A stretch of DNA of 64,000 bases. Origin: Candidatus Avedoeria danica. GTDB lineage: Bacteria > Chloroflexota > Anaerolineae > Epilineales > Epilineaceae. The DNA is taken from the NCBI GenBank assembly GCA_016703025.1, contig JADJCV010000003.1:23506-87505 (forward strand). Direction: 5' to 3'. The position numbers and the translations under genes were made by a program. How positions within the stretch are numbered: the first letter of the stretch is position 1; every line of letters begins with the position of its first letter. The notes below the pieces were generated by a model. The model was not told the DNA's origin. It did no database searches and was given only the letters and a program-made list of their open reading frames with translations. Positions 5,129 to 54,825 of the stretch are shown piece after piece.

Positions 5129-5130
5129 TA

Positions 5131-5223: not shown

Positions 5224-5370
5224 GGGGTTGCCTCCCTCCAAGCGATCCGCACACGGGTGTTCCGGACGCGGCGGGCGGTCCACCGCTCGCCCTGCCGGCA
5301 ACGCGCGGACCGTGTTGGCAGCATAATGCCGCGGCCGTGGGACCAGCGTAAGGATGATTCAGGGGGCCGT

Positions 5371-22524: not shown

Positions 22525-23220
22525 TCAGGCCGCGGAGGATAGCATCGACCCGTCCAGCGTGCGGATCACGGCGATGACCTTGCCCTGGATCTCGACGTTC
22601 GACGGCGCCGCATAGATCGGCTCCATCGTCGGGTTCATCGGTTGGAGCCGGATGCGGTCGGGGTCGCGCTCGTGATAGTAGCGCTTGAGCGTGGTCTCCT
22701 CGCGGTCGCAAATCCAGGCCGCCACCATGTCGCCGTTGTTGGCGGTCTCCGCCCGCTGCATGACGACGATGTCGCCGTCGTTGATCAGCGCGTCGATCAT
22801 CGACGTCCCGCGCACGACGAGGGCGAAGACGTCCTCGCGACCGCCCACGAGATCGCGCGTCACCTCGATCCACTCGTCCGGGTCCTGGTCACCCGGCACC
22901 GGGATCGGCTGGCCGGCGGCGATGCGGCCGAGCATCGGCAGCCGCATGCGGCTCGAAGGCCGGAAGATCTGGTTGAACTCGTGCCGCGCCTTCTCCGTGA
23001 TCGACAACCCGCGCGAGATCCGGTCGTCGCGCGCGATCAGGCCGCGCTCCTTGAGCTTGTTCAGGTGGTAGTTGATGACGCTCGTCGAGCTGATCTGCAC
23101 GGCTTTGTGCTCGCCGATCTCGCGGATCGTCGGCGGGGAGCCGCGCTCCTCGATGCGCTGGACGATGAACTTGAGGATCTCAAGCTGCCGTGCCGTGAGC
23201 GGTCGTTCCGGTCGCGCCAT
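22525..23220 (-). CDS. lexA: LexA repressor (SOS regulator)
   Basis: 231 aa from Met20 of the track ORF (MARPERPLTARQLEILKFIVQRIEERGSPPTIREIGE, a wHTH). C-terminal S24 peptidase with the Ser region (VVRGTSMIDALINDGD) and Lys (TLKRY). SD GGAGG 7 nt upstream. Two Cheo boxes lie upstream. Confidence 0.9.
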   Translation of the reverse strand: MARPERPLTARQLEILKFIVQRIEERGSPPTIREIGEHKAVQISSTSVINYHLNKLKERGLIARDDRISRGLSITEKARHEFNQIFRPSSRMRLPMLGRIAAGQPIPVPGDQDPDEWIEVTRDLVGGREDVFALVVRGTSMIDALINDGDIVVMQRAETANNGDMVAAWICDREETTLKRYYHERDPDRIRLQPMNPTMEPIYAAPSNVEIQGKVIAVIRTLDGSMLSSAA

Positions 23221-23271: not shown

Positions 23272-23283
23272 GAACACATGTTC
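23272..23283. promoter_or_regulatory. LexA operator (Cheo-type SOS box) GAACACATGTTC upstream of lexA
   Basis: cgGAACACATGTTCGa matches the Gram-positive consensus CGAAC-RNRY-GTTCG. Located 52-63 nt upstream of the lexA ATG. Confidence 0.7.
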
Positions 23284-23301
23284 GATGTCAAGATGTTCGT
23301 T

Positions 23302-23313
23302 GAACGTAAGTTC
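23302..23313. promoter_or_regulatory. Second LexA operator GAACGTAAGTTC upstream of lexA
   Basis: ttGAACGTAAGTTCGa, 30 bp centre-to-centre from the first box. The tandem arrangement is typical of lexA autoregulation. Confidence 0.7.
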
Positions 23314-39524: not shown

Positions 39525-39705
39525 GGTGTCTTTCGGGGTGATGAGGCGGGGAGCGGGCGTTGCCAGCAGAATCGCGCCGACGGGCACCGCAGGCGTGACG
39601 ATCATCGTAGGGGTGGCGGCGACCTTGGGCAAGGTGGCATCGTGTGCGGCCCGTGCTCCGGCCGGCGTTGGCCCGCCCGGGGATTCCGCGATACCCTGTG
39701 CGCCG

Positions 39706-40755
39706 ATGTCCTCCCCCACCCGCCCCGCCACCCCTGCCCGCCTGCGCCGCCTGCATGCCGCCGGCGCGCTCGACGCCGACGGCTATCGGCGGGTGCTGGC
39801 CGCGGCGTTGGCGCTGCCCCCCGCGGCGGCATGGCGGCGGTTCCTGGACCGGTTGATGCTGGCCATCGGCGCGACGCTGACCGTCACCGGCATCGTCGCG
39901 TTCTTTGCCTACAACTGGGCCAGCCTGGGCCGTCTTGGGCGCGTCGGGCTCGTCGAGCTCGCCCTCGTGACGGTCGGGGGGGTGGCGCTGTGGGCCGGTG
40001 TCGACCGGCTCGGCGGGCAGCTGGCGGGCATGGCCGCCGTGGCGCTCACCGGCGTCCTCCTCGGGGCGATCGGCCAGGCGTACCAGCAGGGCGCCGACCC
40101 TTGGACGCTCTTTGCCGTCACCGCCGCTCTCGGCCTGCCGTGGCTGATGGCGACGCGCTTCGCGCCGCTCTGGCTGCTCGAGTTGATCCTGGCGAACCTC
40201 GCCCTTGGGCTGTGGTGGATCATCGACCTCGGGGACGACGGTGGCGCCGTCGCGCGTTTTCTCCTCGCGCTCAGCGCGCTGAACGGCGGCGCCTGGCTGT
40301 CATGGACGCAGGGCGCGGCGAGCGCCGGACTGTCGGCGGGGCGCTGGCTCCCGCGCGTCGTCGCGCTGGCCGCGCTGGCGCCGCTGGCGATCGGTGCGGC
40401 GGCGTACGTCGCCATCGACGTGCTGCGGTACGATGCCGGCCCGGATGACCTCCGGTTCGGGCCGAGCGGGCTGGCGGTGTTCGTCGTCTGGCTCATCGTG
40501 ACGGCGGCGATTCTCGTCCTCTTCCGCCGCCGCTGGCCCGACCTGTTCATGCTGGCGGCGGCGATGCTCGGAATCTGCACGGTGCTCACGGCGGCCATGT
40601 TCCGCTGGCTGATCGAATGGGTCCAGCGGTCGAGCGATGTCGGCGGGCCGTGGCTCGTCATGGCCGCGTTCCTGTTGGCCGAGGGCGGCCTGACGGCGAT
40701 CTGGCTGCGGCGCCAGCAGCTGGCGATGGCGGCCGCGGAGGACGACGCCCCATGA
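39706..40755 (+). CDS. DUF2157-like polytopic membrane protein (first gene of a conserved three-gene membrane module)
   Basis: Start Met62 of the track ORF (the sufU-fusion gene occupies the upstream region on the other strand). N-terminal cytosolic region then many TM helices (AIGATLTVTGIVAFFAYNW, LVELALVTVGGVALWAG...). Assignment is by recalled family architecture and needs an HMM check. Confidence 0.65.
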   Translation: MSSPTRPATPARLRRLHAAGALDADGYRRVLAAALALPPAAAWRRFLDRLMLAIGATLTVTGIVAFFAYNWASLGRLGRVGLVELALVTVGGVALWAGVDRLGGQLAGMAAVALTGVLLGAIGQAYQQGADPWTLFAVTAALGLPWLMATRFAPLWLLELILANLALGLWWIIDLGDDGGAVARFLLALSALNGGAWLSWTQGAASAGLSAGRWLPRVVALAALAPLAIGAAAYVAIDVLRYDAGPDDLRFGPSGLAVFVVWLIVTAAILVLFRRRWPDLFMLAAAMLGICTVLTAAMFRWLIEWVQRSSDVGGPWLVMAAFLLAEGGLTAIWLRRQQLAMAAAEDDAP

Positions 40756-41852
40756 TCCTCCCCCCGCCCACGCTCGGCGATGCCCTTGCGGCAGCCGGCC
40801 TCCCGCGCGACGCCGGCGCCGGCGGCACCGGCGCAGCGAACGCCGGCGGCAGCCCGTGGTACGTCCGGCTGCTCGTCGCCGGCTTGGCCTGGGCCGCCGC
40901 GCTGTCCGTGACGGGCTTCCTGGCGGCCACCGGCATGATCGACGAGGACGCCTTCGCCTATTGGGGCATCGCGGCGGCTGCCGCATCGATCGTCCTCGCC
41001 CGCCGGGGCCCGTCCGACGCCGACGCACGCGGCGCGGTGGCCGACTTCGTGGCCCAGCTCGCGCTCGTGCTCAGCCTGCTCGCGCGCGTGCTCGTGTTCA
41101 TCGGCGTCGGGGCGTGGGCGAACGGTGACCAAGCGGTCATCGGCGGGGCGATGGCCGCCCTCGAGATCGTCCTCTTCATCGCCTACCCGGACTTCTTCCA
41201 ACGCTTCCTCGCCAGCGGCCTTGCCTGCGCCTGGCTGCTCGTCGTGCTCGGCGACGTCGACGACGTGCTGTTCGTGGCCTACGCGCGGGACGTCGTGACG
41301 CTGCTTGCGGCCTTCGGGGGGGCGTGGCTCTGGATCGATCGCCCGCGCCTCCTCGCCGGCCGTCTGGCGGACTACGCCGCGCCGGCCGGTTATGGGCTGG
41401 CGGTCTTCGTCGTCGGCGCGCTCCTGCAGGAGACGATCGCGGCGTTCGGCCGGTTCTTGCCCGGCGCGCGCTGGCCGGCCACCGCCGGGCTGGCGATCGG
41501 CGTCGTATGGCTCCTGCTGTGGGTGCGCGGGCGGCTCGGCCGGCCGATCGTCGATGCCGGCGCCGGCGTGCTCATCGTCCTCGTCGCCGCGCTCGCGTAC
41601 GCCACCCGGATCGAGCCGGGCATCCTGGCCGCCGTCGGCGTGCTGCTCCTCGGCTTCCTGGCGCGCGACGGGCTGCTGCACGGCCTCGGCGTCGCGGCGA
41701 TGGGCGCGACGGTCTGGCACTTCTTCTACAGCATGAACCAGACGATGCTCGTCAAGAGCGGGATCCTCGTGGCCGGCGGGCTCGTTCTCCTGGGCGGGCG
41801 CTGGGTCTGGCTGCGGTTGGCGGGCGATCCGAACGTGGGCGACGGCCGATGA
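40752..41852 (+). CDS. DUF4401-like polytopic membrane protein
   Basis: Start Met46 (MILPPPTLGDALAAAGL) overlapping the previous stop (ATGA). About 10 predicted TM helices. Typical partner of DUF2157 and GDYXXLXY proteins. Confidence 0.65.
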   Translation: MILPPPTLGDALAAAGLPRDAGAGGTGAANAGGSPWYVRLLVAGLAWAAALSVTGFLAATGMIDEDAFAYWGIAAAAASIVLARRGPSDADARGAVADFVAQLALVLSLLARVLVFIGVGAWANGDQAVIGGAMAALEIVLFIAYPDFFQRFLASGLACAWLLVVLGDVDDVLFVAYARDVVTLLAAFGGAWLWIDRPRLLAGRLADYAAPAGYGLAVFVVGALLQETIAAFGRFLPGARWPATAGLAIGVVWLLLWVRGRLGRPIVDAGAGVLIVLVAALAYATRIEPGILAAVGVLLLGFLARDGLLHGLGVAAMGATVWHFFYSMNQTMLVKSGILVAGGLVLLGGRWVWLRLAGDPNVGDGR

Positions 41853-42439
41853 TCTCCCGCCGCACCCTTGGCGCCCTCGGCCTCGTCGCCGCGCTCGCCT
41901 TCGCCAACGCCCAGTTGGTCGGCCTCGAGCGCCTGTTCGGCGGCGAGGGCCGCCAGGTCCTCATGCCGTTGGCCCCCGTTGATCCGCTCTCGTACATCCA
42001 GGGTCGCTTTGTGGCCCTGCGCTACCGCCTCGAGGGGGACGAAAGCCTGATCACGACGCCCGTGCGGGTCGACGGCGAGGAAGTCGAGCGCTGGCGGATG
42101 TGGCCGCGCGTCGGCAAGATGGCCGTCGCCGTGGATGCGAACGGCGTGGCGACGGCCATTCGGCTGCACGTCGAGAGCGTCCCCGTTGCCCCGGACGAAG
42201 TCCTGTGGCGCTACCGCAAGTCGGACAGCGACCTCATCATCGGCACGGACGCCTGGTTCTGCCCCGAGGAACGATGCGCCGACTTCGAAGGCACCGCCCG
42301 CTACGGCGTCTTCCGCGTCGACGCCACCGGCCGCGTCATCCTCGTCGGCCTGGCGGACGAGGACCGCGCCCTCGTCGCCACCCCGCCGCCGCGCTGGTGG
42401 ACCGGTGAAAGGGTGGCCACGCCGACGCCGAGCCCGTAA
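41849..42439 (+). CDS. GDYXXLXY-domain-like exported protein (196 aa)
   Basis: Start Met176 of track ORF 41324..42439 overlapping the DUF4401 stop (ATGA). Signal peptide MISRRTLGALGLVAALAFANAQ. Motif GRFVALRY fits G-[DR]-[YF]-x-x-L-x-Y. Cys pair (WFCPEERC). Confidence 0.65.
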   Translation: MISRRTLGALGLVAALAFANAQLVGLERLFGGEGRQVLMPLAPVDPLSYIQGRFVALRYRLEGDESLITTPVRVDGEEVERWRMWPRVGKMAVAVDANGVATAIRLHVESVPVAPDEVLWRYRKSDSDLIIGTDAWFCPEERCADFEGTARYGVFRVDATGRVILVGLADEDRALVATPPPRWWTGERVATPTPSP

Positions 42440-42462
42440 CGGATCGCTGTCCAGCGGCCCAT

Positions 42463-42482
42463 GGGCGACGCATGCGTCGCCC
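42463..42482. terminator. Perfect 20-nt palindrome gggcgacgcatgcgtcgccc, 24 nt after the GDYXXLXY gene stop
   Basis: Seen directly. Terminator-like hairpin closing the three-gene module. Confidence 0.45.
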
Positions 42483-42620
42483 CTACGCGGTGTGGGATGT
42501 GGGAGCCGAGGTGCCGGCATCCGGGGCGGGGATCGGTGACGCGGTGGCCTGTGGTCGCACTTGATCGCATGGGGTCGCCCACAACGCATGCCGCGCCTTG
42601 AGCGTCTATCGTTGTCCACC

Positions 42621-45600
42621 ATGATGCACCCGCCTCGCTCGCCCATGCTCACGCGCACCGCCGTATTCGTCGGCCTCGCCGCCGTCGCGTGCGCGGTCCC
42701 CATCGCCGTCGCCGCCCGGCGCGCCGACGTCGGCGCCACCGCACCTGTGCAGGCCCGGCCCCGGGCCCAGTTCCTGGCCCAGTCCCAGCCGCAGCCGCCG
42801 ACCGCATACGCGTTGGCCGGCGAGTGGGTGTGGCCGGAGCGGCCGATGCTGCCGGTGGATGTCGCGTTTCTGGAGGACGGGCGCGTCGTGGTGGCCGATG
42901 GTCGGAACCCGCGCGTCGTCGTCGTCGGCCCCGAGGGGGACGTCGAGGCGGTGTGGCGGACGGCGTACGAGCCCGTGGCGCTGGCGGTGGATCCGGCGGG
43001 CGGGCGGGTGTACGTGCTGTGCTTCGCGCAGACGCGGGCGCGCGTCGGGCGGGATGCCGTGGTGACGACGCACGAGGTTCTCGAGACCTGGGCGCTGGAC
43101 GGGCAGCGGGTGCGACAGGATGTCCTGCCGGGATGGTCGACGGCCAGCGCCGACGAGGCGCCGAGCTGGGATGTCGCGGTGGCGTGGGGCGGGGCGCCGG
43201 TCGTGCAGGCCGACAACGTGCTCTACCGCGTGACGCTGTCCGATGACGACGCCGTGCCTGCGACGTTCACGCCGCTGTCGGGCCTCTCGCGCGGCACCGC
43301 GGTGCGCCCGGTTCGCCTTGCCGCGGCGGACGACGGGCTCGTCATCGCCCAGGCTGCGACCGGCATCGTGTCCCGCGTGGACGCCACCGGGCGCACCGTG
43401 GCGCGCCGAGACTGGCCGGGCGAGCGCGTGCTCGACGTCGCGATCGACCGCCGCGAGCGGGTGCACGTCCTCGTCGGGCCGGGCGAAGGCGGTGCGGGCG
43501 GCCGGGTGCGGCACATCGTCCTGAGCGCCGCGCTGGCACCGCTGGACGATCGGCCGTTGGCGGACGACGCCGCGCCTTCGGCGACCATCGCCCCCGCACA
43601 GGCCGCGTTCGCCTGGGCGCTCGACGTGTACGGCGACGGCGTGGCGGTCGTCGGGGGCGGGGCCAACCTGTCGCTCCGGCGCTGGACGGGGCCGGTGTCG
43701 GACGCGCCGGCCGTCGTGCAGCCGTTCGGTGCGCGTCCGGCCGCGTTCGACGCGCGCGACAAGCGCGTGGCCGGCAGCCGCGCGCTGGCCCTCGGCGCGC
43801 TGCCCGACGGCCGGACGGTGGCCCTTGATGGGCCGCAGGCGCGTGTCGTGGCATTCGACGCGTCCGGTCTCGGGACGAACGTCGTCACGTTCGCGGGCGA
43901 CGCGGTCGATGCGGCCGTGGCGGAGGACGGGACGGTGTGGGCGACGTTTGCCGACGGCACGGTGCGGCGCGTGACCGGACCGGGACTCGGGTCGCTTGGC
44001 GCGGCGCCTGACGACCCATCCGCCGCGCGATGCGAATGCCCGCTCGGCGGTCGGATCGCGGTGGACCGTTCGCGCGCCTACGTTTCCCGGCCGACGAGCC
44101 GAACGGTGGCCGGGATCGCCGGTTTGGCCGGCCTTGCGCCCGACGATGCACCGGGCGGTGCGTCGCCGCGGCTGCTCGCCTGGGCGGAGGGCGTCGGCCT
44201 CTGGCCGAGCGACATCGCGGTGGCCGCCGACGGTACCGTGCTGGCGGCGGATGCGATCGCGGGCGAGATCGTCGGGTGGTCGCCGGGGTCGCTCGAGGGT
44301 GCGCCGCCGGACCGGCGCTGGCCGGCGGGGCTGCTGGCCGGGCCGCGGCGGCTCGCGGCGGGGCGCTTCGGCGGGCCGGGCGGCCTGGATCTGGTGGCCG
44401 CCACGCTGACGGACGGTGCCGTCGAGGTCCACCGCGGCGACGACGGCGGACTGCTGGCGCGCTTCACGCCGGTTGTCGACGGGGCCGTCGTGTCGGCCGA
44501 GGACGTGGCGCTGCACGCGGATGGGCGGATCGTGTTGGCCGAAGCGGTCTCGCGCCGGGTGCACGCCTTCGTGCCGTCCGCGGCGCCGGTCGACCCGACC
44601 GAGCCCGGCGGGCTGGGTGCCACCCCATCGCCGACGCCGACGCCGTCGGACGGGAGCTGTCGTGTGAGCGGCGACAAGCGGGTCGGGCCGGAAACGATCG
44701 TGCTCGGCCAGACGGCCGCCGTCACGTTGACGCTCTCGGCTGATTGCCCGCCGCGCGCGCGGCTAGCCGGGGCCGACATCGTCCTCGTGCTCGATCGCTC
44801 CGGCTCGATGTACGGTGAGGCGATGCAGCGCGCCAAGGACGCGGCCCGGACGTTCATCGAGCTCCTCGATGTCCGGCGGCACCGCGCGGCGCTCTTGTCG
44901 TTCGCCGGCTTCGTGACCGTCGACGCGCCGCTGTCGACGGACAGCGCGGCGGTCATCCGGGCCCTCGACACGCTCGTGCCGGACGGCGGGACGAACCTGA
45001 CGGACGCGATCCGCCAGGCCGGCATCGTGCTCGGCCGCGAAGGGCGGGCGGATGCGTTGCCGGTCATCGTCCTGATGACGGACGGGCGCGACTCGAACGG
45101 GCGCGACGGGCCGCTCCAGGCGGCCGGAGATGTGAAGGCGCAGGGCGTCCAGATCTACACGATCGGCCTCGGGCGCGACCTCGACGAGGGCGGGCTGCAG
45201 GCGATCGCAACGCGCCCCGACCGCTACTTCCACGCGCCGACGCCCGACGAGCTCTTCCCGATCTATCGCCAGATCCTGCGCTTGGTGGAGACGAGCCTCG
45301 CCGGCAACCTGATCGTGACGGACCGGCTGGGCGACCGGATGGCGATGATCGGTGGTTCCTCGGCACCGGCAGCGCTCGAGGGCGCCGACCGTCTGTCGTG
45401 GGGCCGCTCGATCCTGCCGGCCTCCGGTGTGACGTTCACCTACCGCGTGCGCCCGATCGAAGCCGGTCGCTGGCCGGTGAACCGCGAGGCCGTCGCCCGC
45501 TACGCCGATGCGGACGGGGTCGAGCGCTCGTTCGTCTTCCCGGTGCCGCAGATCCTCGTCCTGGCGCCCACCCCCACCCCCACCGCCACACCGACCTCGA

Positions 45601-46298
45601 CCCCGACGCCGACGACGACGCCCACGCCCACCCGCACGCCGACGTCGACGCCGTCGCCGACGCCGACGCACACCGCGACGATCACGCCATCCCCGACCGC
45701 GACACGCGTCCCGCGGCCGATCTACCTGCCGCTCGCGCTGAACAGCCACTGCATTCCGACCGGCCAGTACGTCGACCTGATCCTCGTGCTCGACACCTCG
45801 GCCTCGATGGCCGGCGACAAGTTCGCGGCCGCCCAGGCGGCGGCCCGGACGTTCGTCTCGCTGTTCGACCCGCCGCGCGACCGCCTGTCGCTCATCAGCT
45901 TCAGCGAGGTTGCCACGCTCGTCGTGCCGCTCGGGTCGAGCACGACCCGTCTGCGCGCCGGCATCGACGGCCTGGCCCTTGCCCCCGGCACGCGAATCGA
46001 CCGCGCGCTGGAGGCGGCACGGGCCGAGCTGCGCTCGACGCGGCGCCGCGCGGCGAACAAGCCCGTCGTCGTCCTGCTGTCCGACGGCAGCCAGTCCGGC
46101 GAGACCGCACCGCTCCTGGCGGCCGCCGACCGCGTGCTCGCCGACGGCGTCACCGTCCACACGATCGGCCTCGGCCCGGACGCCGACCGCGCGATGCTCG
46201 AGCGGATCGCCTCCCGGGGCGGGTTCCGGTACGCGCCGGGAACGGCGGAGCTGGAGGGCGTGTACCGCGCGATCGCCGGGCAGACGCGGTGCCGGTGA
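42621..46298 (+). CDS. Large secreted protein with an N-terminal NHL/beta-propeller-like repeat region (about 690 aa) and two VWA domains separated by a PT linker (VWA paralog 1)
   Basis: Signal peptide (MLTRTAVFVGLAAVACAVPIAVAA). The exact start among 42561 (TTG), 42588, 42621 and 42645 is unresolved. Propeller-like repeats (VDVAFLEDGRVVVADGRNPRVVVV, PSDIAVAADGTVLAADAIAGEIVGW). VWA1 is ADIVLVLDRSGSM...VLMTDGRDS...IYTIGLG. PT linker TPTPTATPTSTPTPTTTPTPTRTPTSTPSPTPT. VWA2 is DLILVLDTSASM...VLLSDGSQS...VHTIGLG. Confidence 0.75.
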   Translation: MMHPPRSPMLTRTAVFVGLAAVACAVPIAVAARRADVGATAPVQARPRAQFLAQSQPQPPTAYALAGEWVWPERPMLPVDVAFLEDGRVVVADGRNPRVVVVGPEGDVEAVWRTAYEPVALAVDPAGGRVYVLCFAQTRARVGRDAVVTTHEVLETWALDGQRVRQDVLPGWSTASADEAPSWDVAVAWGGAPVVQADNVLYRVTLSDDDAVPATFTPLSGLSRGTAVRPVRLAAADDGLVIAQAATGIVSRVDATGRTVARRDWPGERVLDVAIDRRERVHVLVGPGEGGAGGRVRHIVLSAALAPLDDRPLADDAAPSATIAPAQAAFAWALDVYGDGVAVVGGGANLSLRRWTGPVSDAPAVVQPFGARPAAFDARDKRVAGSRALALGALPDGRTVALDGPQARVVAFDASGLGTNVVTFAGDAVDAAVAEDGTVWATFADGTVRRVTGPGLGSLGAAPDDPSAARCECPLGGRIAVDRSRAYVSRPTSRTVAGIAGLAGLAPDDAPGGASPRLLAWAEGVGLWPSDIAVAADGTVLAADAIAGEIVGWSPGSLEGAPPDRRWPAGLLAGPRRLAAGRFGGPGGLDLVAATLTDGAVEVHRGDDGGLLARFTPVVDGAVVSAEDVALHADGRIVLAEAVSRRVHAFVPSAAPVDPTEPGGLGATPSPTPTPSDGSCRVSGDKRVGPETIVLGQTAAVTLTLSADCPPRARLAGADIVLVLDRSGSMYGEAMQRAKDAARTFIELLDVRRHRAALLSFAGFVTVDAPLSTDSAAVIRALDTLVPDGGTNLTDAIRQAGIVLGREGRADALPVIVLMTDGRDSNGRDGPLQAAGDVKAQGVQIYTIGLGRDLDEGGLQAIATRPDRYFHAPTPDELFPIYRQILRLVETSLAGNLIVTDRLGDRMAMIGGSSAPAALEGADRLSWGRSILPASGVTFTYRVRPIEAGRWPVNREAVARYADADGVERSFVFPVPQILVLAPTPTPTATPTSTPTPTTTPTPTRTPTSTPSPTPTHTATITPSPTATRVPRPIYLPLALNSHCIPTGQYVDLILVLDTSASMAGDKFAAAQAAARTFVSLFDPPRDRLSLISFSEVATLVVPLGSSTTRLRAGIDGLALAPGTRIDRALEAARAELRSTRRRAANKPVVVLLSDGSQSGETAPLLAAADRVLADGVTVHTIGLGPDADRAMLERIASRGGFRYAPGTAELEGVYRAIAGQTRCR

Positions 46299-46344
46299 CG
46301 AACTCGCACGTCCCCCGCGACATGACTAGAATGAGCGTTGGTCA

Positions 46345-46356
46345 GAACGAATGTTC
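46345..46356. promoter_or_regulatory. LexA-box-like site GAACGAATGTTC (Cheo consensus), 48 nt after the VWA1 stop and upstream of a small zinc-ribbon-like ORF
   Basis: aGAACGAATGTTCg fits CGAAC-RNRY-GTTCG as well as the two boxes at lexA. A -10-like TAGAAT (46327-46332) sits 12 nt upstream, which is the classic repressor-over-TSS geometry. Confidence 0.45.
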
Positions 46357-46392
46357 GCATCCGCCCGCCCGATCCCCGATGGAGCACTGCCC

Positions 46393-46812
46393 ATGAGCTT
46401 CCAACAGCGACCCCAACGCCGCACTCCGCGCTGCCCGTGGTGCGATCAGGAGATGGTCCCGAGTCCCGACAGCCGCGGCGGCCGCCTCTTCTGCCCGACG
46501 GGCGAGGCGGTCGAATACCGTTTGAGCGGCGGGCGGTGGTACTTCAACGGGCGCCTGAACGGTCTCGACGAACCGATTCCACCGGCGCCGGATGACGGTG
46601 ATCCGACGGGCGCGGGCGAGGATGAGGCTGCCGTTTCCTCGAAGCGGGTGGAGATGCGCGATCGTACGGATGCGTCGGCTCCGTCGGCTCCGTCGGCGCC
46701 GCCGGAGCCGACGGAGCCGGTTCAGCCAGAGTCGCTCGATCCGCTCGATGCGTTCCGACAGATCGCCAGCGATGCGTGGGGTGCGGCGGATGCGGACGAA
46801 GAGGCGGAGTAG
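46393..46812 (+). CDS. Small acidic protein (139 aa) with an N-terminal zinc-ribbon-like CPWC-x15-CP motif and a disordered Pro/Asp/Glu-rich tail; candidate SOS-regulated gene
   Basis: GGAG 8 nt upstream of ATG 46393. The track ORF starts at 46351, inside the LexA-like box. GC3 about 70%, lower than neighbours, so coding status is uncertain. Confidence 0.4.
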   Translation: MSFQQRPQRRTPRCPWCDQEMVPSPDSRGGRLFCPTGEAVEYRLSGGRWYFNGRLNGLDEPIPPAPDDGDPTGAGEDEAAVSSKRVEMRDRTDASAPSAPSAPPEPTEPVQPESLDPLDAFRQIASDAWGAADADEEAE

Positions 46813-46853
46813 GGTCGCGTTGGGGTGAGGGAAGGCGTAGGGCACGGGAGGAA

Positions 46854-46978
46854 GTGCAGAGCCGGCGGGCGGGGGTGGTTGGGGACGGGGCATTTTGGTT
46901 CGTGCATTTTGTTCGCAGGGGCCGCTTGGCCCCTGCACCCCAGCCAGGGGGCGCAGCGCCCCCCTGGACCCCCCGCAT
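46854..46978. repeat. Left arm of a 125-bp near-perfect inverted repeat (partner at 47218-47344)
   Basis: Reverse complement of 47218-47344 except cattttggttcg vs ctttttgggttcg. Contains nested hairpins caggggcc-gctt-ggcccctg and gggggcgc-a-gcgccccc. Confidence 0.7.
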
Positions 46979-47217
46979 CGGAATTTCCGGTCGTTCAAGC
47001 ACGCGGTCTCGCGCCCGGAAGAGGTCTGGCGGATCGAAGTGCGGCACAGAGTAGTTGGTGGACCGCCCCGCGGCGTGCGGGCCAAAAACGTCAACGAGCA
47101 AGATGACATCCCAACGATCTTGCTCGATCAATTGCCTGCTCGTTCGACGGGATTGGGGCGTCCGCTCCAATCTACGCGCCGACGACAATCCGCGGCGGCC
47201 ATAGAAGCGAAACCTGG

Positions 47218-47344
47218 TGCGGGGGGTCCAGGGGGGCGCTGCGCCCCCTGGCTGGGGTGCAGGGGCCAAGCGGCCCCTGCGAACAAAATGCACGAACCCA
47301 AAAAGCCCCGTCCCCAACCACCCCCGCCCGCCGGCTCTGCACCC
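47218..47344. repeat. Right arm of the 125-bp inverted repeat; the 238-bp lower-GC core lies at 46979-47216
   Basis: See the left arm. Followed by a roughly 150-nt polypyrimidine (C/T-rich) leader up to the VWA paralog 2 start codon. Confidence 0.7.
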
Positions 47345-47501
47345 CGTCCCCTGCCCTACCTCTTCCCTTGCCCGACCTCCCACACACCCCCCCCCAACGC
47401 CCCACGCGTCCGATCACACCCTGCTATCCTTCCCCCCCGGTCGCGCCTTCTACCTCCTGCCGCACGCCGTTCGCGCCCGACGCCCAGCCGGGGGAGCCTG
47501 C

Positions 47502-50500
47502 ATGTCGATCCAACCGAAGGCCGACCCCCGGTCAGCCACGACGCTGTGCGCCGCCGCCACTCGAACCCCCATCCCTCGGGCCCCGCGCCTCTCCTCCGCG
47601 GTCGCCGCCTGTTGGGCAGCTGCACTCACGCTCGCCCTCACACTCGCCGTTGCGCTCGTCCCAACATCCCATGACGCCGCATCCGGCAGCCCCGCCGCCC
47701 AGCTCACCGCCGCCGCCTGGCGCAACACCGCCACCCACCTCCTCCCGCCCCCGCCCCCCTTCCCGCTCGCCCTCGCCTTCGACGACGCCGGCGGCCTCTA
47801 CATGGCCGACGGCCGGACGCGCCGCGTGGCGCGCTACGACGGCGCGGGGGCCGTCACGGGGGGGTGGGACGTCGACGGCGTGCCGCTGGCCCTGACGTGG
47901 GACGCGACCGAACGGGTGGTCCTCGTCTTTGTCTTCACCGGCGCCGGGCCGTTTGTCGAGGCCTGGCGGCCGGACGGCGTGCGTCTCTGGAGCGACCGCG
48001 TCACGGACCAGTTCGTCCGCGGCCTCGAGGACCAGCTGTCCGTCGATCTCGGCTGGGCCGTCGGCGACGTCGGACCGACCGTGCTCTTCAACGGCGAGGC
48101 GTCGCGCTACGACCGGGCCAGCGGCCTCCTCCAGCGCGCCGGCGGGCGCTGGATCGCCGCCGACGGCCGGCCGATGCGGATGGCCGTCCTCTCCGCCACG
48201 CTCCTCGCCGCGATCGAGCCCGCGCAGCAGCGGCTGCTCTTCGTGGACATCGCCCGCGGCGTCCGCGCCACCGTGCCACTCACGGACGTCGTCCCGCTGG
48301 CCGTTGCCGCCGGGCCGGTCCTGGCATTCTCGTCCTCCGCCGGTACGACGACCGCCCCGCCCGTCGTCGCTCACGTGCTGGCCCGCGGCGTCGAGCGCGA
48401 TCGCGTCGGCCTCGTCGTGCTCAGCATCGCCCCGGACGGCCGCGAGGTCGGGCGCTGGGCGGTGCCGCCGGCGCTCGGCGGCGCGCCCGGCGACGACGCG
48501 GCGCGCTGGTCGATCGCCGTCGGCGCCGACGGCCTGGCCTTCACGCGCGGCGTCGAGCGCTTCAGCCTCGAGCGCTTCGGGCCGGGCGGGCAGCACCGCT
48601 TCAGCGTGCCGATGGGCCGCATGGCCGGCACGTTCGGTCGCCGCGCCGCCCGGACCCGCGCCAATTTGGTCAGCGGCTCGGCCGCCCTCGGCCTCGCCGC
48701 CGGTCCGGACGGTGCGCTGGCCGTGCTCGACGGCCCGGGCTCGCGGATCCTCGCGCTCTCCGTGGACGGTGCGGCTGCGGGCAGCGTGCTCCAGCAGACC
48801 GTCCTGCCCTACGACGTCGTCGACATCGCCTCGGATGCGGACGGGGCGATGTCGAAGCCCGCCACGGCCCGCTACTTCGTGTCGCTTGCCGACGATCGGA
48901 TCCGCCGGGTGAGCGCTGCCGCCGATGTCGCGCGCTTCACCGACCCGTGGACGGCCGACTGCGGCTGCCCGCTTGGTGGACGGATGTCGATGGGCGGCGG
49001 ACGGCTCTGGCTCACGCGGCCGGCGACGCGCCGCGTGGCGGAAATGGAAGTCGATGCCGGGTCGGTGCGCGAGGTCGTCAAGGCGGGCGCGATCGGGCTC
49101 TGGCCGGCGGATATCGCGGCCGGCGAGGACGGCAGCGTCTGGGTGGCCGATGGGATCGTCGGGCGCGTCGAGCGCTGGCGGCCTGGGGCGTCCGAACCGG
49201 CAGCGGCGTGGCAGGCCGGTGTGCTGAACGGCCCGCGCCGGCTCGCGGCCGGACGATTGGCGGACGGGACGGACGCCGTTGCCGTGCTGCTGGCCGACGG
49301 CCATATCGAGATCCATGAGCGCGCCGGCGGCAACCTCATCGCGGCGTTCAAGCCGCGCCTGATCCCCGACGAGCCGTTGCTGGCGGACGACTTGTTCATC
49401 ACCGCCGGCGGTTCCCTTGCCCTGGCCGACGCCGCGCGGCGTGCCGTGCACATCTTCGCTCCCGTGGGTGCGGCGACGCCAACGCCCGACGCGACGCCGA
49501 ACGCAACGCCCGACACCGTGCCGACCAGGACGCCCGGCGCAACGCCGACGGCGATCGTCGGCGGCGGCACGTGCCGGGTCTCGGGCGACAAGGCCGTTGG
49601 GCCGAACCGGATCCTCCTCGGCCGGACGGCGGCCGTGACGCTGACGCTCAGCGTCGACTGCCCGGGCCAGCCGCGGCTACTCGGGGCGGACGTGATGCTC
49701 GTCCTCGACCGCTCGGTGTCCATGTCCGGAGACGGGCTGGCCGGGGCGAAGGCGGCGGCGCTCCAGTTCGTGTCGCTGCTCGACGTGCGCGTGCACCGCG
49801 TCGGCCTCGTTTCGTTCGGGACGGACATCCGGTTGGAGGCGGCGCTCGGCGCCGACCCGGTGCCGGTGGCCAACGGGATCAACCGACTGGTGGCCGGCGG
49901 CGAGACGAACCTCGGCGCGGCGCTCCTGGCCACCGGGCGCCACATGGAAGCGCGGCGGCGCGCGGACGCCCAGCCCGTCATCGTCCTCCTGACGGACGGC
50001 CATGACACCGTCCAGGACGCCGACCCGGTGGCCACCTCGCTCTGGCTGAAGGGCTGGGGGGTCCAGATCTACGCCGTTGGGCTCGGCGAGAGCGCGGATG
50101 CCGCATCGCTCGACCCGCTGGCGACGGACCCCGCCCACGTCTTCCTCGCGCCGTCGCCCAACGAGCTTGCGCCGATCTACGCCCAGATCGTCCGCCGTGT
50201 CGGGACGTCCGGACTGGTGGCCAACCTCAGCGTCGACGACGATCTCACGCCCGGGATCGGCCTCGAGCGCGGCTCGGCCCAGCCGCCGGCCCTCGAACGC
50301 CCGGACGGTCTGTCGTGGGGCCGGGCGGTCCTCGGCCCCGAGGGGTTCGCCGCCGAGTTCGTCATCCGTCCGACCGCGGCAGGTCGCCACGCGGTCAGCC
50401 GCTCGGCCGTCGCGCGCTGGACGGACGCCGACGGCGCCGTGTACGCCTTCCCGTTCCCGCCGGTCGAGATCGAGGTGTACGTTCCGACCGCCGTGCCGTC

Positions 50501-51113
50501 CCCGACGCCGACAGCGACGCCGGAACCGTACCGCGCCTACCTGCCCGTCCTCTGGCGCTCGGCCTGCATCCCGGCGCCCAAGCCGGCGGACGTCGTGCTC
50601 CTCATCGACACGTCCAGCAGCATGACGGGCGACAAGCTGGCCCAAGCCAAGACCGCCGCCAAGACGTTCGTCGGCCTGCTCGACCTCCCGCGCGACCACG
50701 CCGCCGTCGTCTCGTTCGACGAGGAGCCGCGCGCGACGACCGGGTTGTCGGGCAGCCTGGCGGCGCTCGAGGCGGCCATCGGGTCCCTCACGAACGGCAC
50801 CGGAACGCGGATCGACCGCGCCCTCGAGGCCGCGCACGCCATGCTGGCCACGACCCGTGCCGATCCGTCGCGCCGCGCCGTCGTCGTGCTCCTGACGGAC
50901 GGCGGCCAGTCCGGACCGCTCCCGCCCGTTCTCACCGCCGCCGAAGCGCTCCGGACCAGCGGGACCGTGCTCTACGCCGTCGGCCTCGGCCCGGACGCCG
51001 ACCTGGCGCTCCTGCGCACCGTCGCCGGCCCCGGCCGCCTCTTCACCGCGCCCACGCCGGCCGATCTGGCGGCCATCTACGCGGAGGTGGCGGCGGTGAC
51101 GGGGTGTCGGTGA
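47502..51113 (+). CDS. Large secreted NHL/beta-propeller-like protein with two VWA domains separated by a PT linker (VWA paralog 2, tandem to 42621..46298)
   Basis: Start Met96 of the track ORF with GGGGGAG 5 nt upstream. Signal peptide MSIQPKADPRSATTLCAAATR...AACWAAALTLALTLAVALVP. Same architecture and conserved blocks as paralog 1 (RVSGDKAVGPNRILLGRTAAVTLTLSVDCP...DVMLVLDRSVSM...; ...DVVLLIDTSSSMTGDK...LLTDGGQSG). Ends ...AVTGCR like paralog 1 (...GQTRCR). Confidence 0.8.
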   Translation: MSIQPKADPRSATTLCAAATRTPIPRAPRLSSAVAACWAAALTLALTLAVALVPTSHDAASGSPAAQLTAAAWRNTATHLLPPPPPFPLALAFDDAGGLYMADGRTRRVARYDGAGAVTGGWDVDGVPLALTWDATERVVLVFVFTGAGPFVEAWRPDGVRLWSDRVTDQFVRGLEDQLSVDLGWAVGDVGPTVLFNGEASRYDRASGLLQRAGGRWIAADGRPMRMAVLSATLLAAIEPAQQRLLFVDIARGVRATVPLTDVVPLAVAAGPVLAFSSSAGTTTAPPVVAHVLARGVERDRVGLVVLSIAPDGREVGRWAVPPALGGAPGDDAARWSIAVGADGLAFTRGVERFSLERFGPGGQHRFSVPMGRMAGTFGRRAARTRANLVSGSAALGLAAGPDGALAVLDGPGSRILALSVDGAAAGSVLQQTVLPYDVVDIASDADGAMSKPATARYFVSLADDRIRRVSAAADVARFTDPWTADCGCPLGGRMSMGGGRLWLTRPATRRVAEMEVDAGSVREVVKAGAIGLWPADIAAGEDGSVWVADGIVGRVERWRPGASEPAAAWQAGVLNGPRRLAAGRLADGTDAVAVLLADGHIEIHERAGGNLIAAFKPRLIPDEPLLADDLFITAGGSLALADAARRAVHIFAPVGAATPTPDATPNATPDTVPTRTPGATPTAIVGGGTCRVSGDKAVGPNRILLGRTAAVTLTLSVDCPGQPRLLGADVMLVLDRSVSMSGDGLAGAKAAALQFVSLLDVRVHRVGLVSFGTDIRLEAALGADPVPVANGINRLVAGGETNLGAALLATGRHMEARRRADAQPVIVLLTDGHDTVQDADPVATSLWLKGWGVQIYAVGLGESADAASLDPLATDPAHVFLAPSPNELAPIYAQIVRRVGTSGLVANLSVDDDLTPGIGLERGSAQPPALERPDGLSWGRAVLGPEGFAAEFVIRPTAAGRHAVSRSAVARWTDADGAVYAFPFPPVEIEVYVPTAVPSPTPTATPEPYRAYLPVLWRSACIPAPKPADVVLLIDTSSSMTGDKLAQAKTAAKTFVGLLDLPRDHAAVVSFDEEPRATTGLSGSLAALEAAIGSLTNGTGTRIDRALEAAHAMLATTRADPSRRAVVVLLTDGGQSGPLPPVLTAAEALRTSGTVLYAVGLGPDADLALLRTVAGPGRLFTAPTPADLAAIYAEVAAVTGCR

Positions 51114-51152: not shown

Positions 51153-54100
51153 TCAGCGCCGCCCCGCCCAAGGCAGCCAAACCACCCGTTCGCGCCCCGG
51201 CGTGAGCACCGGCGGCGGCGTGCGCGGCTCCGGCGTGCCCGTCGGCTCGATCGTCGGCCGCGGCGTCATCGTCGGGGGCGGGGTGGCGGTCGGGAGGAGC
51301 GTGTCCAGGAAGCCGGACGGGAAGTAGGCGTAGCCGGACTGCTGACCGAACCGGTACGCGAGGCGCGTGAAGCGCGTGCTCTCGCCGATGCGGGCCGCTT
51401 GCGGCCGCACGACGACGCCGATCAGCTGCGGCCGGCCGCGCGGCAGGCGCTCGAACGTCCAGATCGCTTCGGCCGGGTGGTCGGGGTCCAACGTTCGTGG
51501 CAGCGGCACGTACTTGTCGAAGTCGGGCTCGATGTCCTCCGGATAACCCTCGATGATCTGAATGGCCGTCGGCTGTACATTGCCGAGGTCGGCGGCGATG
51601 CCCTTGAACAACTCCACGAGCAGTGCGCTGTCCGGGGCGAGCAGCGCATCGGGCCCGCTCGAGGCGACGGATGCCAGCTCAGGGTCGCAGTCGCCGGCGC
51701 AGACCGTGATGATCCGGATGCCCTTGGCCTTCATCCCCGTCGCCGTCGCGAGCATCACCGGCGCCGCGCCGGCCGCCTCGCGGCCGTCCGTCAGGAGGAC
51801 GACCGCGCCGACGGCGTCCGGCCGGCGGGCATCGAGCAGTCCCTCGGCGGCGACGAGGGCGCTCGTGATCGCCGTCCGGCCGTTGGCCTCGAGCCGGGCG
51901 AGGGCGCTGCGGACGGCCCGGAAGTCGGCGTCCAGCGGCAGCCGGGCGTCGACCTCGGTGCTGAACGTCACGAGCCCGACGCGGGTGCCGGACGGCACGC
52001 CGTCCAGGAAGCCCTCTGCGGCCCGCACGGCGTTCGTCAGGCGAGACTGGCTGGCCATCGAATCGGAGTGGTCGATGACGAGCACGACGTCCAGCTTGGC
52101 GGTCGTCGGCGGGCAGACCAGCGCGGCGGAGAGCGTGAAGGTGATCGGGTCGCCGGCGACGGCACCGGCCCGGCGCGGCAGGCGATCGAGGTCGGGCGTG
52201 CACGGACCGGCGGTGCCGGGGGGGAAGACCGTCACCGCGGGCGATGCAAGGCGGGTCGTGGCCGAGCGGTCGACCTCGTCGACGAACGTCAGGCGCGTGT
52301 CCGTGCCGAGCGGCAAGTCCGTGCCGAGCGCCTGTGGCTGGACTGCATAGCGCACCGACTCGCTGCCGGCTCCGGAGCGGGTCGTCACGTGCCACGTCAG
52401 CCGCTGGCCATCGATCGCATCGGGCGGCGGCACGGCCGAGTCGGCGACGTAGCGCATGTCCGGCGGCAGCGTTTCCTCGATCGTGGCTTGCTTGATCCGG
52501 ATCGTGCCGTACCGGTGGGCGAGGGCGCTGAGGAGCCCGTCGAGCCCGGTCGCGTGAACGGTGTGGTGCTCGCTCGGGCCGCTGGCCGACTGTTCCAGCG
52601 CCGGGTGGCAGCGCACGTCGATGCAGATCGTCGTGACGCGGACGCCGTCGGACTTGAGCCGGTCGGCCGCGGCCAGCAGCGCCTCAGGGGCCTGGTAGCC
52701 GTCGGTGATCAGGATGACCCCGGCCGCGGCGTCGGGGCGCCGCCACTGCAGCTCGTCACCGGCGGCGGCCAGGCCGGCGGACATGTTCGGCTCACCGAAA
52801 CCACCGCCCGTGATGTCGCCCAGCGAGTCGAGCGTGCCGTGGATGCGGTCGAGGTTGGCCGAGAGCGGCACGCGCAGCACGCGCTGATCCAGCGTCACGA
52901 GGCCGGCGTTGACGTCCAGCGCAGCCGTCTCGTAGAGCAGCGTCCGCACCGCACCGCGAATCCGCGAGAGCTCGTCGACCGTCATCGTCACGCCGGCATC
53001 CAGGACGATGACGAGGTCCTGCCGCCGCAGATCGGTCGGACAGTTCGTGTCGAACGCCACCGTCACGTTCACCGGTTGCGACAGCACGACGCTCGGCTCC
53101 CAGCGCGTCTTGACCGCCGGCGGCGTGCAGGCGGTGCCGGCCGATGCGGCGATGACGGACAGCGGCGCGCCGGGCAGGCGCAGGCGGGCCGAGCTGTACG
53201 CGTCGTTGTACACCAGCCGCGCCGTGCCCTCGCCGGCGTAGCGGACGGGGCCGAGCGCCGCGGCGGTGAAGCTGTAGCGCACGTGCAGCGGTACATCCAC
53301 CTGTGCCGCGAGCGGGCCGATGTGGAGCCCGGCCCCGTCCGCGGTGACCGAGCCGGGCGTGCTCGTCACGGCGCTGCCGGGGACGTACCGTGCGCCGAGC
53401 GGCAGCACGTCGTCCACGGCGATGGAAGTCAGCGCGGCGGCCGTGCCGCGATGCTCGGTGAGCACCCGGCCGAGGAGGATCGCGTCGCGCAGGCGCTGCA
53501 GGTCGGGGAAGTCGTAGGCCCACGTGAGCGCCGGGTCGCAGCCGCCACCGACGCAGATCGGCACGATCTCGATGCCGCGCGCGTCCGCTCGCTTCAGCGC
53601 CGCCGCGACGGCGGACGGGGAGGACCGGACGGCCAGCGAGTTGCCGATGTAGTACACGATCTCGTGCGACAGCGGCTGGCGCACGATCGTGTCGATGGCG
53701 GCGTTCAAGGCGGCCACGGCGGTGCCGCCGGACTCGCCCCGCCAAGCGCGGATCGGGGCGTTCAGCGTGTTCACGTCGCGCGTCGGCGGGACGACGACGG
53801 GCTGCGGCGCGACGTTCCAGACGATGCCGTATATCCCGTCCGCGCCGCCCGGCGGATCGTACCACGCGCGCGCCGTCGTCACGTAGCGCTCGATGTTCTC
53901 GTCCGTCAGGCCCGCCGGCGGCTGGAGGGCGATGATCCCGTTGGACTGCACCGGGAAGGCCCAGCAGCCGCGCGGGGTGAACTGCAGCGTGACCTCGACG
54001 CGGTCGCCCGGACGGGCCGCTTCCGGGTTGTAGCGCCGGCTGGCCTCGAGCCGGCAGTCGCTGTCGGCGCGCGGGACGACGACGGTGAGCGGGATGTCGA

Positions 54101-54680: not shown

Positions 54681-54825
54681 GTGCGACTCCGTGGTGCGAT
54701 CGGCGCGGCACGCCAGGAAGAACACGCGCCGACCGCGGATCTGGACAGCTGATCAAGGATAGGGACAGCGGACTCCGGCTGAAGGTTGCACCGTCCGCCG
54801 GAAGGCGCTCTGCTAGGATAGCGCG

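What the first reader, a model, noticed from the sequence alone, without database searches (positions are those of the whole stretch)
46327..46812. Third Cheo-type LexA box in front of a small zinc-ribbon-like acidic ORF: a candidate novel SOS-regulated small protein
aGAACGAATGTTCg (46345-46356) matches CGAAC-RNRY-GTTCG as well as the two boxes at lexA (23272-23283, 23302-23313). It lies 12 nt downstream of a TAGAAT -10-like hexamer, a position where a repressor would cover the transcription start site. The next ORF is 139 aa (46393-46812) with CPWC-x15-CP followed by a long D/E/P-rich tail. Small SOS-induced proteins of unrelated sequence act as division inhibitors in Gram-positive and actinobacterial SOS responses (established knowledge). 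Whether this ORF is one is inference. Its GC3 is lower than neighbouring genes, so even its coding status needs confirmation.
Basis: partly seen in the sequence, partly recalled or inferred. Interest (0 to 1): 0.65.

Follow-up and report, generated by a model that had tools for sequence, protein, structure and literature searches.

The report
LexA-controlled orphan zinc-ribbon protein gene
A small, previously undescribed gene in a wastewater Chloroflexota bacterium carries a conserved binding site for the DNA-damage repressor LexA in its promoter, so it is very probably switched on by DNA damage, but its product does not look like the known damage-induced cell-division blockers and its job is still unknown.

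Summary
GAACGAATGTTC (46345-46356) is one of only three GAAC-N4-GTTC sites in 64 kb. The other two sit in the lexA promoter. The 139-aa ORF (46393-46812) is a real gene: 19 synonymous and 0 non-synonymous codon changes against one orthologue in the first 66 codons. In four orthologue lineages with otherwise diverged upstream DNA, the module TTGnnn-16-TAnAAT-12/13-GAACGNATGTTC is kept, even where it moved about 55 nt further from the ATG. Direct LexA repression is therefore well supported, though only by comparison.

The protein belongs to a very small orphan family, found here only in an Ardenticatenales MAG, Ca. Epilinea brevis and unassigned metagenome contigs. It has no Pfam, NCBIfam, PHROGs or PDB match. 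It has a basic Cys3(+Glu) zinc-ribbon-like head, an L-x-E-P-I-P-P-x-P motif, a variable acidic disordered linker and a conserved C-terminal amphipathic helix.

It has no membrane segment or LysM domain and is not next to lexA, so it is not a YneA/ChiZ/SosA-type division inhibitor. Four more distant homologue lineages lack an exact box (three have nothing like one; one has a one-mismatch site), so LexA control is confined to one subclade. Function is unresolved.

Side finding: a 237-bp invertible segment with about 185-bp inverted repeats lies just downstream.

The parts
46327..46332 (+). -10 hexamer TAGAAT of the small gene's promoter
   Evidence: TAGAAT or TACAAT is conserved at the same distance (12-13 nt) from the box in L001, L007, L008 and L012. 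Those orthologues also have TTGnnn 16 nt upstream. The window lacks that -35 because of a short deletion (alignment).
46344..46357 (+). LexA operator (Cheo-type box) AGAACGAATGTTCG, core 46345-46356
   Evidence: One of 3 exact GAAC-N4-GTTC sites in 64 kb. It is the only such site in each orthologous locus, always between the -10 and the ORF. The only variation is in the N4 spacer (GAAT versus GCAT in L007).
46381..46384 (+). Shine-Dalgarno GGAG, 8 nt before the ATG
   Evidence: GGAG is invariant in all aligned orthologue leaders.
46393..46812 (+). CDS of the 139-aa orphan protein
   Evidence: purifying selection. No hit in Pfam, NCBIfam, PHROGs or PDB.
46426..46563 (+). Basic zinc-ribbon-like head (residues 12-57: CPWC-x16-CPxGE, then the hairpin VEYRLSGGRWYFNGR)
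   Evidence: Nearly invariant across the family. The AF2 model shows beta strands with pLDDT 70-80. The pI of residues 1-58 is 9.6.
46564..46590 (+). Conserved proline motif L-x-E-P-[IVF]-P-P-x-P (residues 58-66)
   Evidence: L58, E60, P61, P63 and P66 are invariant in 12 sequences.
46591..46737 (+). Variable acidic, Pro-rich disordered linker (residues 67-115)
   Evidence: Length and sequence vary between orthologues. pLDDT is below 50 for most of residues 69-96 and about 50-55 for the rest of the linker. The tail has pI 4.05 and 22 D+E.
46738..46782 (+). Conserved C-terminal amphipathic helix LDPLDAFRQIASDAW (residues 116-130)
   Evidence: L118 and W129 are invariant in all 12 family sequences. 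LDAFRxIAS-AW is invariant in the close orthologues. The AF2 model has a helix at 117-129 with pLDDT about 73.
22525..23220 (-). lexA (231 aa), the repressor inferred to bind the box
   Evidence: Pfam LexA_DNA_bind 2.4e-18 and Peptidase_S24 4.4e-26. Reading the sequence, GRIAAGQP (Ala-Gly cleavage site), GTSM (Ser) and TLKRY (Lys) match my recollection of the LexA self-cleavage motifs.
23272..23313 (-). Two LexA boxes in the lexA promoter (23272-23283 and 23302-23313)
   Evidence: Read on the minus strand the promoter is TTGACA-17-TACACT. One box fills the spacer and the other lies just upstream of the -35, a classical autoregulatory layout.

Best explanation
The region is a self-contained, single-gene SOS unit of Ardenticatenales-type Chloroflexota.

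Regulation. A sigma-70-type promoter is followed 12-13 nt later by one Cheo-type LexA operator. In the orthologues the promoter reads TTGnnn-16-TAGAAT; in this window the -35 is missing. The operator covers about +5 to +18 of the transcript, inside the RNA polymerase footprint. The LexA encoded 23 kb away should bind there as a dimer and block initiation or promoter escape. After DNA damage, RecA-stimulated self-cleavage of LexA would free the promoter and the 139-aa protein would be made.

Product. The protein is soluble and cytoplasmic, with two poles. One is a basic zinc-ribbon-like head, with ligands probably C14, C17, C34 and the invariant E38, and a hairpin rich in Arg, Trp and Tyr. The other is a conserved C-terminal amphipathic helix. 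They are joined by a long acidic disordered tether.

Most likely mode of action (inference). It acts as a binder or adaptor: the head holds nucleic acid or a partner protein, and the tethered helix engages or blocks a second partner in the damage response.

What is shown: the operator, promoter and gene are conserved together, the gene is under purifying selection, and the domain layout is as described. What is inferred: LexA binding, damage induction, zinc binding, and any partner.
For: Motif and placement. There are three exact sites in 64 kb, two of them in a textbook autoregulated lexA promoter.

Phylogenetic footprint. Exactly one GAAC-N4-GTTC occurs per orthologous locus, and it is always upstream of the ORF. 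In L014 the chance expectation is 0.06 per 6.5 kb. Four lineages keep TTGnnn-16-TAnAAT-12/13-GAACGNATGTTC: window/L001/L014/L019, L007, L011-12 and L008-10. The surrounding DNA is poorly conserved (mean column identity 53%). In L008-10 the whole module sits 102 nt before the ATG instead of 47. The only change inside the box is in the spacer.

The gene is real. Synonymous/non-synonymous counts are 19/0 and 18/1, and the GGAG is invariant.

Layout. Head pI 9.6, tail pI 4.05, no hydrophobic segment. Beta-strand head, disordered middle and helix 117-129 in two AF2 runs.

Stand-alone gene. The neighbours differ between lineages, so the box serves this ORF and not an operon.

Published background. 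GAAC-N4-GTTC is the LexA motif of Firmicutes and Actinobacteria, with variants in Chloroflexi (PMC4951493).
Against: There is no experimental evidence of LexA binding or induction.

Four more distant homologue lineages lack an exact box. Ca. Epilinea (L015, L021-23), L016 and L018 have none; L020 has only a one-mismatch site over the -35. LexA control is therefore not a family-wide trait.

In the window itself the -35 TTG present in the orthologues is deleted, and the consensus promoter scan finds nothing. Promoter strength here is uncertain.

Confidence: 0.72

Rival explanations
1. It is the SOS cell-division inhibitor of this lineage, either a functional analogue of YneA/ChiZ/DivS/SosA or a cytoplasmic SulA-like FtsZ binder.
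For: It is small, LexA-boxed and lineage-specific, as SOS division inhibitors typically are (PMC6851548). No other candidate lies beside lexA in this window: the gene upstream of lexA is co-directional. The layout of disordered linker plus short conserved C-terminal helix loosely recalls the linker and C-terminal peptide of FtsZ. That comparison is from my own recollection and was not tested.
Against: It has no membrane segment (maximum KD19 0.05), no LysM or SulA domain, and is not adjacent to lexA (23 kb away). These are the shared features of the Gram-positive inhibitors. The Phe of the helix is not conserved in distant homologues, which weakens the idea that it mimics the FtsZ peptide.
Confidence: 0.12
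2. It modulates the RecA filament in the manner of DinI: the acidic C-terminal helix contacts RecA while the zinc-ribbon head anchors the protein on DNA.
For: It is an SOS-type gene. The C-terminal helix RQIASDAWGAA aligns with the DinI C-terminal helix SEILQETWESA; hhalign chose exactly that pairing. A basic head with an acidic tail is a common design among DNA-metabolism proteins (established knowledge).
Against: The alignment is not significant (probability 0.1%, E 0.47, 11 columns). There is no Pfam DinI hit even at E 0.1. The folds differ: DinI is alpha/beta without zinc.
Confidence: 0.12
3. The palindrome is not a working LexA operator. It would be a chance or relic site, or the target of another regulator, and the gene would be expressed independently of DNA damage.
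For: The window count alone is weak evidence (4 of 100 shuffles reach 3 sites). Distant homologues lack an exact site. The window's promoter lacks a -35.
Against: The identical 12-mer, with the same spacing to the -10, is kept in four lineages whose flanking DNA has diverged and been rearranged. The same motif occupies the lexA promoter.
Confidence: 0.08
4. The LexA-controlled promoter mainly serves something downstream, namely the invertible element or the giant NHL/VWA gene at 47502-51113, and the small ORF is incidental.
For: The small ORF, the foldback element and the giant gene are co-directional. The consensus scan finds no terminator in 46200-47300.
Against: In L008-L010 a convergent amidase-like ORF follows the small gene. 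In L015, L016 and L018 the downstream genes are unrelated. The only partner conserved with the box is the small ORF, which is itself under strong purifying selection. The arms, about 185 bp long, would form a very stable hairpin in RNA (-475 kcal/mol, z -30), which probably stops read-through.
Confidence: 0.05

Closest known systems
Cheo-type LexA (DinR) operators of Firmicutes, Actinobacteria and Chloroflexi (GAAC-N4-GTTC)
   Same: It has the same dyad and spacing. It lies inside the RNA polymerase footprint. The same motif is present twice in the autoregulated lexA promoter of this genome (PMC4951493).
   Different: The 5' flank is A rather than C. There is a single site, starting at about +5/+6 rather than over the -35 or -10. 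Binding has not been tested.
Gram-positive and actinobacterial SOS division inhibitors (YneA, ChiZ, DivS, SosA)
   Same: They are small, fast-evolving, lineage-restricted proteins under LexA control.
   Different: Those proteins have one membrane segment, an extracellular C-terminus, often a LysM domain, and are encoded next to lexA. This protein is soluble and acidic, has a zinc-ribbon-like head, and is encoded 23 kb from lexA.
DinI (E. coli SOS-induced RecA modulator)
   Same: It is a small SOS protein that ends in an acidic amphipathic helix containing Trp. hhalign pairs the two helices.
   Different: There is no significant sequence or profile similarity. The folds differ, and DinI has neither a zinc-ribbon head nor a long disordered tether.
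[not shown]
   Same: They share a compact three-stranded zinc-ribbon-like head followed by an acidic tail.

Membership tests
LexA operator (Cheo box) / LexA regulon member | Palindrome GAAC-N4-GTTC | tested here: met
   Exact match at 46345-46356. Only 3 occur in 64 kb.
LexA operator (Cheo box) / LexA regulon member | The same motif is present in the genome's own lexA promoter, and the LexA is intact | tested here: met
   Two boxes lie within and next to the TTGACA-17-TACACT promoter of lexA. LexA has LexA_DNA_bind and S24 domains. Motifs resembling the Ala-Gly site and the Ser and Lys residues are visible in the sequence; their assignment is from recollection.
LexA operator (Cheo box) / LexA regulon member | Site overlaps the promoter or RNA polymerase footprint of the regulated gene | tested here: met
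   It lies 12-13 nt after a conserved TAnAAT. The transcription start is predicted, not measured.
LexA operator (Cheo box) / LexA regulon member | Site conserved upstream of orthologues | tested here: met
   Four promoter lineages, with one site per locus. An exact site is absent from the distant homologues L015, L016, L018 and L020.
LexA operator (Cheo box) / LexA regulon member | LexA binding and damage induction | not testable with these tools
   Needs EMSA or ChIP, and RNA-seq with and without mitomycin C.
YneA/ChiZ/DivS/SosA-type SOS division inhibitors | Single membrane-spanning segment with an extracellular C-terminus | tested here: not met
   The maximum 19-residue Kyte-Doolittle mean is 0.05, so there is no hydrophobic stretch. 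The feature is taken from PMC6851548.
YneA/ChiZ/DivS/SosA-type SOS division inhibitors | LysM domain (most members) | tested here: not met
   No Pfam hit at E <= 0.1.
YneA/ChiZ/DivS/SosA-type SOS division inhibitors | Encoded next to lexA and transcribed divergently from it | tested here: not met
   The gene lies 23 kb from lexA. The upstream neighbour of lexA is a co-directional ORF.
YneA/ChiZ/DivS/SosA-type SOS division inhibitors | Blocks septation when induced | not testable with these tools
   Needs expression and microscopy.
SulA | SulA fold or Pfam family | tested here: not met
   No Pfam, NCBIfam or PDB match.
DinI | Sequence or profile similarity to DinI | tested here: not met
   hhalign probability 0.1%, E 0.47, over 11 columns. 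No Pfam hit.
Classical C4 zinc ribbon | Two CxxC-type knuckles (four Cys or His ligands) | tested here: inconclusive
   The first knuckle, CPWC, is invariant. The second is CPxGE, with only one Cys in this lineage (CC in others) and an invariant E38. The model shows beta hairpins at pLDDT 70-80. Metal binding was not tested.

The most novel reading that the evidence does not exclude
The protein founds a new class of soluble SOS effector, restricted to filamentous Chloroflexota of activated sludge. In this reading, a DNA- or partner-binding Cys3-Glu zinc ribbon is tethered by an acidic disordered linker to a short amphipathic helix. That helix would dock onto a core machine (RecA filament, divisome or replisome) and pause it during repair. 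The mechanism would be unrelated to SulA, to the membrane-anchored Gram-positive inhibitors, and to DinI.
Probability: 0.22. Interest if true: 0.6.

Novelty: new member of a known kind. Interest (0 to 1): 0.42.

Why it matters
The SOS regulon of Chloroflexota is almost unexplored. The literature I could reach points only to a Dehalococcoides study, cited in PMC4951493. A search for LexA together with Ardenticatenales returned nothing relevant.

This gene is a clean, comparatively validated LexA target with no known homologue. It gives a concrete handle on how filamentous wastewater Chloroflexota respond to DNA damage. It is also a candidate for a new kind of soluble checkpoint or repair modulator.

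By itself it is an ordinary type of result: lineage-specific orphans are common in LexA regulons.

Tried and rejected
Family searches found nothing. Pfam, NCBIfam and PHROGs gave no match for any family member apart from one marginal PHROGs hit at E 0.083. A profile search of PDB sequences gave no match at E <= 10. An exhaustive HMMER search of 1.84 billion cluster representatives gave only about five genuine clusters. The remaining hits were to giant repeat proteins (Big_13, Tudor/EF-hand) that I regard as spurious.

No relatives were found in viral contigs, so I dropped the idea of a prophage antirepressor. Gene neighbourhood gave no clue because the neighbours differ between lineages.

The DinI comparison was not significant. 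Rfam found nothing in 46200-47600. The promoter and terminator scan found nothing there.

No recombinase and no other classical SOS gene appeared among the large ORFs I tested in the window. That set was not exhaustive.

The relaxed motif search with 2 mismatches is at chance level and was not used.

Full report
**1. What is in the sequence**

The window has 72% G+C. At 46327-46332 there is TAGAAT. Twelve bases later comes AGAACGAATGTTCG (46344-46357), then GGAG at 46381-46384 and an ATG at 46393. That ATG opens a 139-codon ORF ending at 46812.

GAAC-N4-GTTC occurs three times in the 64 kb: at 23272, 23302 and 46345. The expectation is 0.72, and 4 of 100 shuffles reach three sites. When two mismatches are allowed the pattern is at chance level, so only the exact sites carry information.

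The two other sites belong to lexA (22525-23220, minus strand). This gene has Pfam LexA_DNA_bind (2.4e-18) and Peptidase_S24 (4.4e-26) domains. Its sequence shows GRIAAGQP, GTSM and TLKRY, which match my recollection of the Ala-Gly cleavage site and the Ser and Lys motifs.

Read on the minus strand, the lexA leader is TTGACA-17-TACACT. One box fills the spacer and the second lies just upstream of the -35. This is a classical autoregulated promoter. It shows that this organism uses sigma-70-type promoters and that GAAC-N4-GTTC is its LexA motif. That agrees with the published motif for Firmicutes and Actinobacteria, with variants in Chloroflexi (PMC4951493).

**2. The ORF is a real gene**

The ORF's GC3 is 0.77, against 0.91-0.93 for neighbouring genes and lexA.

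Seven homologues were found among 5.8 billion proteins. The first 66 codons show 19 synonymous and 0 non-synonymous codon differences against L013. The counts are 18/1 against L007 and 18/9 against L012. That pattern is strong purifying selection.

The GGAG is invariant in all aligned orthologue leaders. The alternative ATG at 46351, inside the box, is out of frame in L001. The start is therefore 46393.

**3. The operator is conserved together with the promoter**

Every orthologous locus that includes upstream DNA has exactly one GAAC-N4-GTTC, and it is always in front of the ORF. In L014 the chance expectation is 0.06 per 6.5 kb.

Four lineages can be told apart by their flanking sequence:
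- window/L001/L014/L019
- L007, with L013 showing the half-site at its contig end
- L011/L012
- L008-L010

All four keep TAnAAT-12/13-GAACGNATGTTC. All except the window's own sequence also keep TTGnnn 16 nt upstream of the -10. In L008-L010 the whole module lies 102 nt before the ATG instead of about 47, so it moved as a unit. The only substitution inside the box is in the spacer (GAAT to GCAT). Upstream DNA as a whole is poorly conserved (mean column identity 53%).

This is a phylogenetic footprint and is the main evidence for function.

Three caveats apply:
- In the window a short deletion has removed the -35 TTG that the orthologues have, and the consensus promoter scan finds nothing.
- More distant homologues lack an exact box. 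These are Ca. Epilinea brevis and its relatives (L015, L021-23), L016 and L018. The Epilinea-type loci have TATACT 7 nt before the ATG, which suggests a leaderless mRNA. L020 has only a one-mismatch site (GCACAAATGTTC) over its -35.
- LexA control is therefore a trait of one subclade, not of the whole family.

**4. The protein**

The family is very small. A filter-only HMMER search of 1.84 billion cluster representatives found about five genuine clusters. The genome hits are an Ardenticatenales MAG and Ca. Epilinea brevis. Exact copies of the window's protein come mainly from wastewater metagenomes. There are no hits in viral contigs.

No member gives a credible Pfam, NCBIfam or PHROGs hit; the best is one PHROGs hit at E 0.083. 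The family profile matches no PDB sequence.

The alignments show four parts:
- a nearly invariant head, residues 1-57: CPWC-x16-CPxGE followed by VEYRLSGGRWYFNGR
- an invariant L-x-E-P-[IVF]-P-P-x-P motif, residues 58-66
- a linker that varies in length and sequence and is rich in D, E, P and A
- a conserved helix LDPLDAFRxIASDAW, with L118 and W129 invariant even in the most distant members

This lineage has only three Cys (C14, C17, C34). Other lineages have CC at 33-34. E38 is invariant and occupies the position of the fourth ligand. That assignment is an inference.

Two AlphaFold runs agree: short beta strands in the head (pLDDT 70-80), disorder from about 60 to 115, and a helix at 117-129. 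The head has pI 9.6 and the tail pI 4.05. There is no hydrophobic segment.

Gene neighbours differ between lineages. They are NHL/VWA giants here, an amidase-like ORF in L008 (my reading of the translation), rpoD in L018, and a TIR-NACHT gene in L016. The gene therefore stands alone.

**5. Mechanism**

The regulatory part is well supported. LexA bound at about +5 to +18 would block the promoter, and RecA-stimulated self-cleavage of LexA would release it.

For the product, the best-supported statement is architectural. It is a soluble, bipolar protein: a basic head rich in Arg and aromatic residues, and a tethered amphipathic helix. This design suits a binder or adaptor.

I rate three more specific readings as follows:
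- Division inhibitor: about 0.12
- DinI-like RecA modulator: about 0.12. hhalign pairs RQIASDAWGAA with the DinI helix SEILQETWESA, but at E 0.47, which is not significant.
- Other DNA- or protein-binding role: the remainder

The protein fails the features that define the Gram-positive division inhibitors. Those are a membrane segment, a LysM domain, and a position next to lexA (PMC6851548).

**6. Novelty and verdict**

The operator type is known, and a lineage-specific orphan in a LexA regulon is a familiar kind of finding. The protein family itself is undescribed. I found no paper on LexA in Ardenticatenales or on such a protein.

I file the finding as a new member of a known kind, of moderate interest.

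**7. Side finding**

Immediately downstream of the ORF lies a 610-bp foldback element.

Its arms are at about 46794-46977 and 47218-47402. Folded as RNA, the element gives -475 kcal/mol with z -30. Only these two arm copies exist in the window.

The 237-bp centre (46980-47216) occurs in both orientations:
- It is in the window's orientation in L027, L030 and L031, which encode an identical small protein.
- It is reverse-complemented at about 99% identity in L025. That locus encodes a protein differing by one residue and carries a nearby ENA assembly accession.
- It is also reversed in the more distant L001 and L019.

Several contigs break inside the left arm. The L013 lineage lacks the element altogether. 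I found no recombinase among the large ORFs tested in the window and no clear promoter in the centre on reading it.

The element sits about 285 nt upstream of the probable start (ATG 47502) of one of three paralogous giant NHL/VWA proteins.

Noticed in passing
window 46794-47402 (arms about 46794-46977 and 47218-47402; centre 46980-47216); also L001 6406-6923, L019 2276-2866, L025 1177-1710, L027 3421-3906: A 610-bp foldback element whose 237-bp centre is found in both orientations in near-identical genomes. It is forward in L027, L030 and L031. It is reverse-complemented at about 99% identity in L025, and also reversed in L001 and L019. Many metagenome contigs break in the left arm. The element is absent from the L013 lineage. 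It lies between the small SOS gene and a giant NHL/VWA gene. No recombinase was found among the large ORFs tested in the window, and I saw no clear promoter in the centre. It may be an inverton, or a flip caused by homologous recombination between the long repeats.
   Followed up: partly
window 42561-46298 (+), 47502-51113 (+), 51153-54752 (-), also 5101-7320 (+): Three neighbouring giant paralogues of about 1200 aa flank the small gene. All three have VWA domains; the two plus-strand ones also have NHL or Vgb_lyase-type beta-propeller repeats and Pro/Thr linkers. A fourth VWA protein lies at 5101-7320. The annotated GTG start at 47217 of the second gene runs through the repeat arm. ATG 47502, preceded by GGGGGAG and followed by a hydrophobic N-terminal segment, is the more likely start.
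   Followed up: partly
window 46296-46326, compared with L001 5900-5936 and L007 about 3465-3490: The window's copy of the promoter has lost the -35 element. The orthologues have TTGTCA, TTGCGA or TTGCGG 16 nt before the -10, while the window has a short deletion there. The gene may therefore be more weakly expressed in this strain.
   Followed up: no
L015 5985-6003, L021-L023, L020 about 100-151: Epilinea-type homologues have TATACT or TATAAT only 6-7 nt before the ATG, which suggests a leaderless mRNA, and have no exact LexA box. L020 has a one-mismatch site GCACAAATGTTC over its -35 region.
   Followed up: no
window 23272-23313: The two lexA boxes are 30 bp apart centre to centre, so they lie on the same face of the helix. 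An extra GTTC half-site at 23295-23298 abuts the second box (GTTCGTTGAAC), which suggests cooperative or tandem LexA binding at its own promoter.
   Followed up: no
window 39505-42500; L001 1-2164: A conserved trio of DUF2157, DUF4401 and GDYXXLXY genes precedes the giant VWA gene, both in the window and in L001. Its function is unknown.
   Followed up: no
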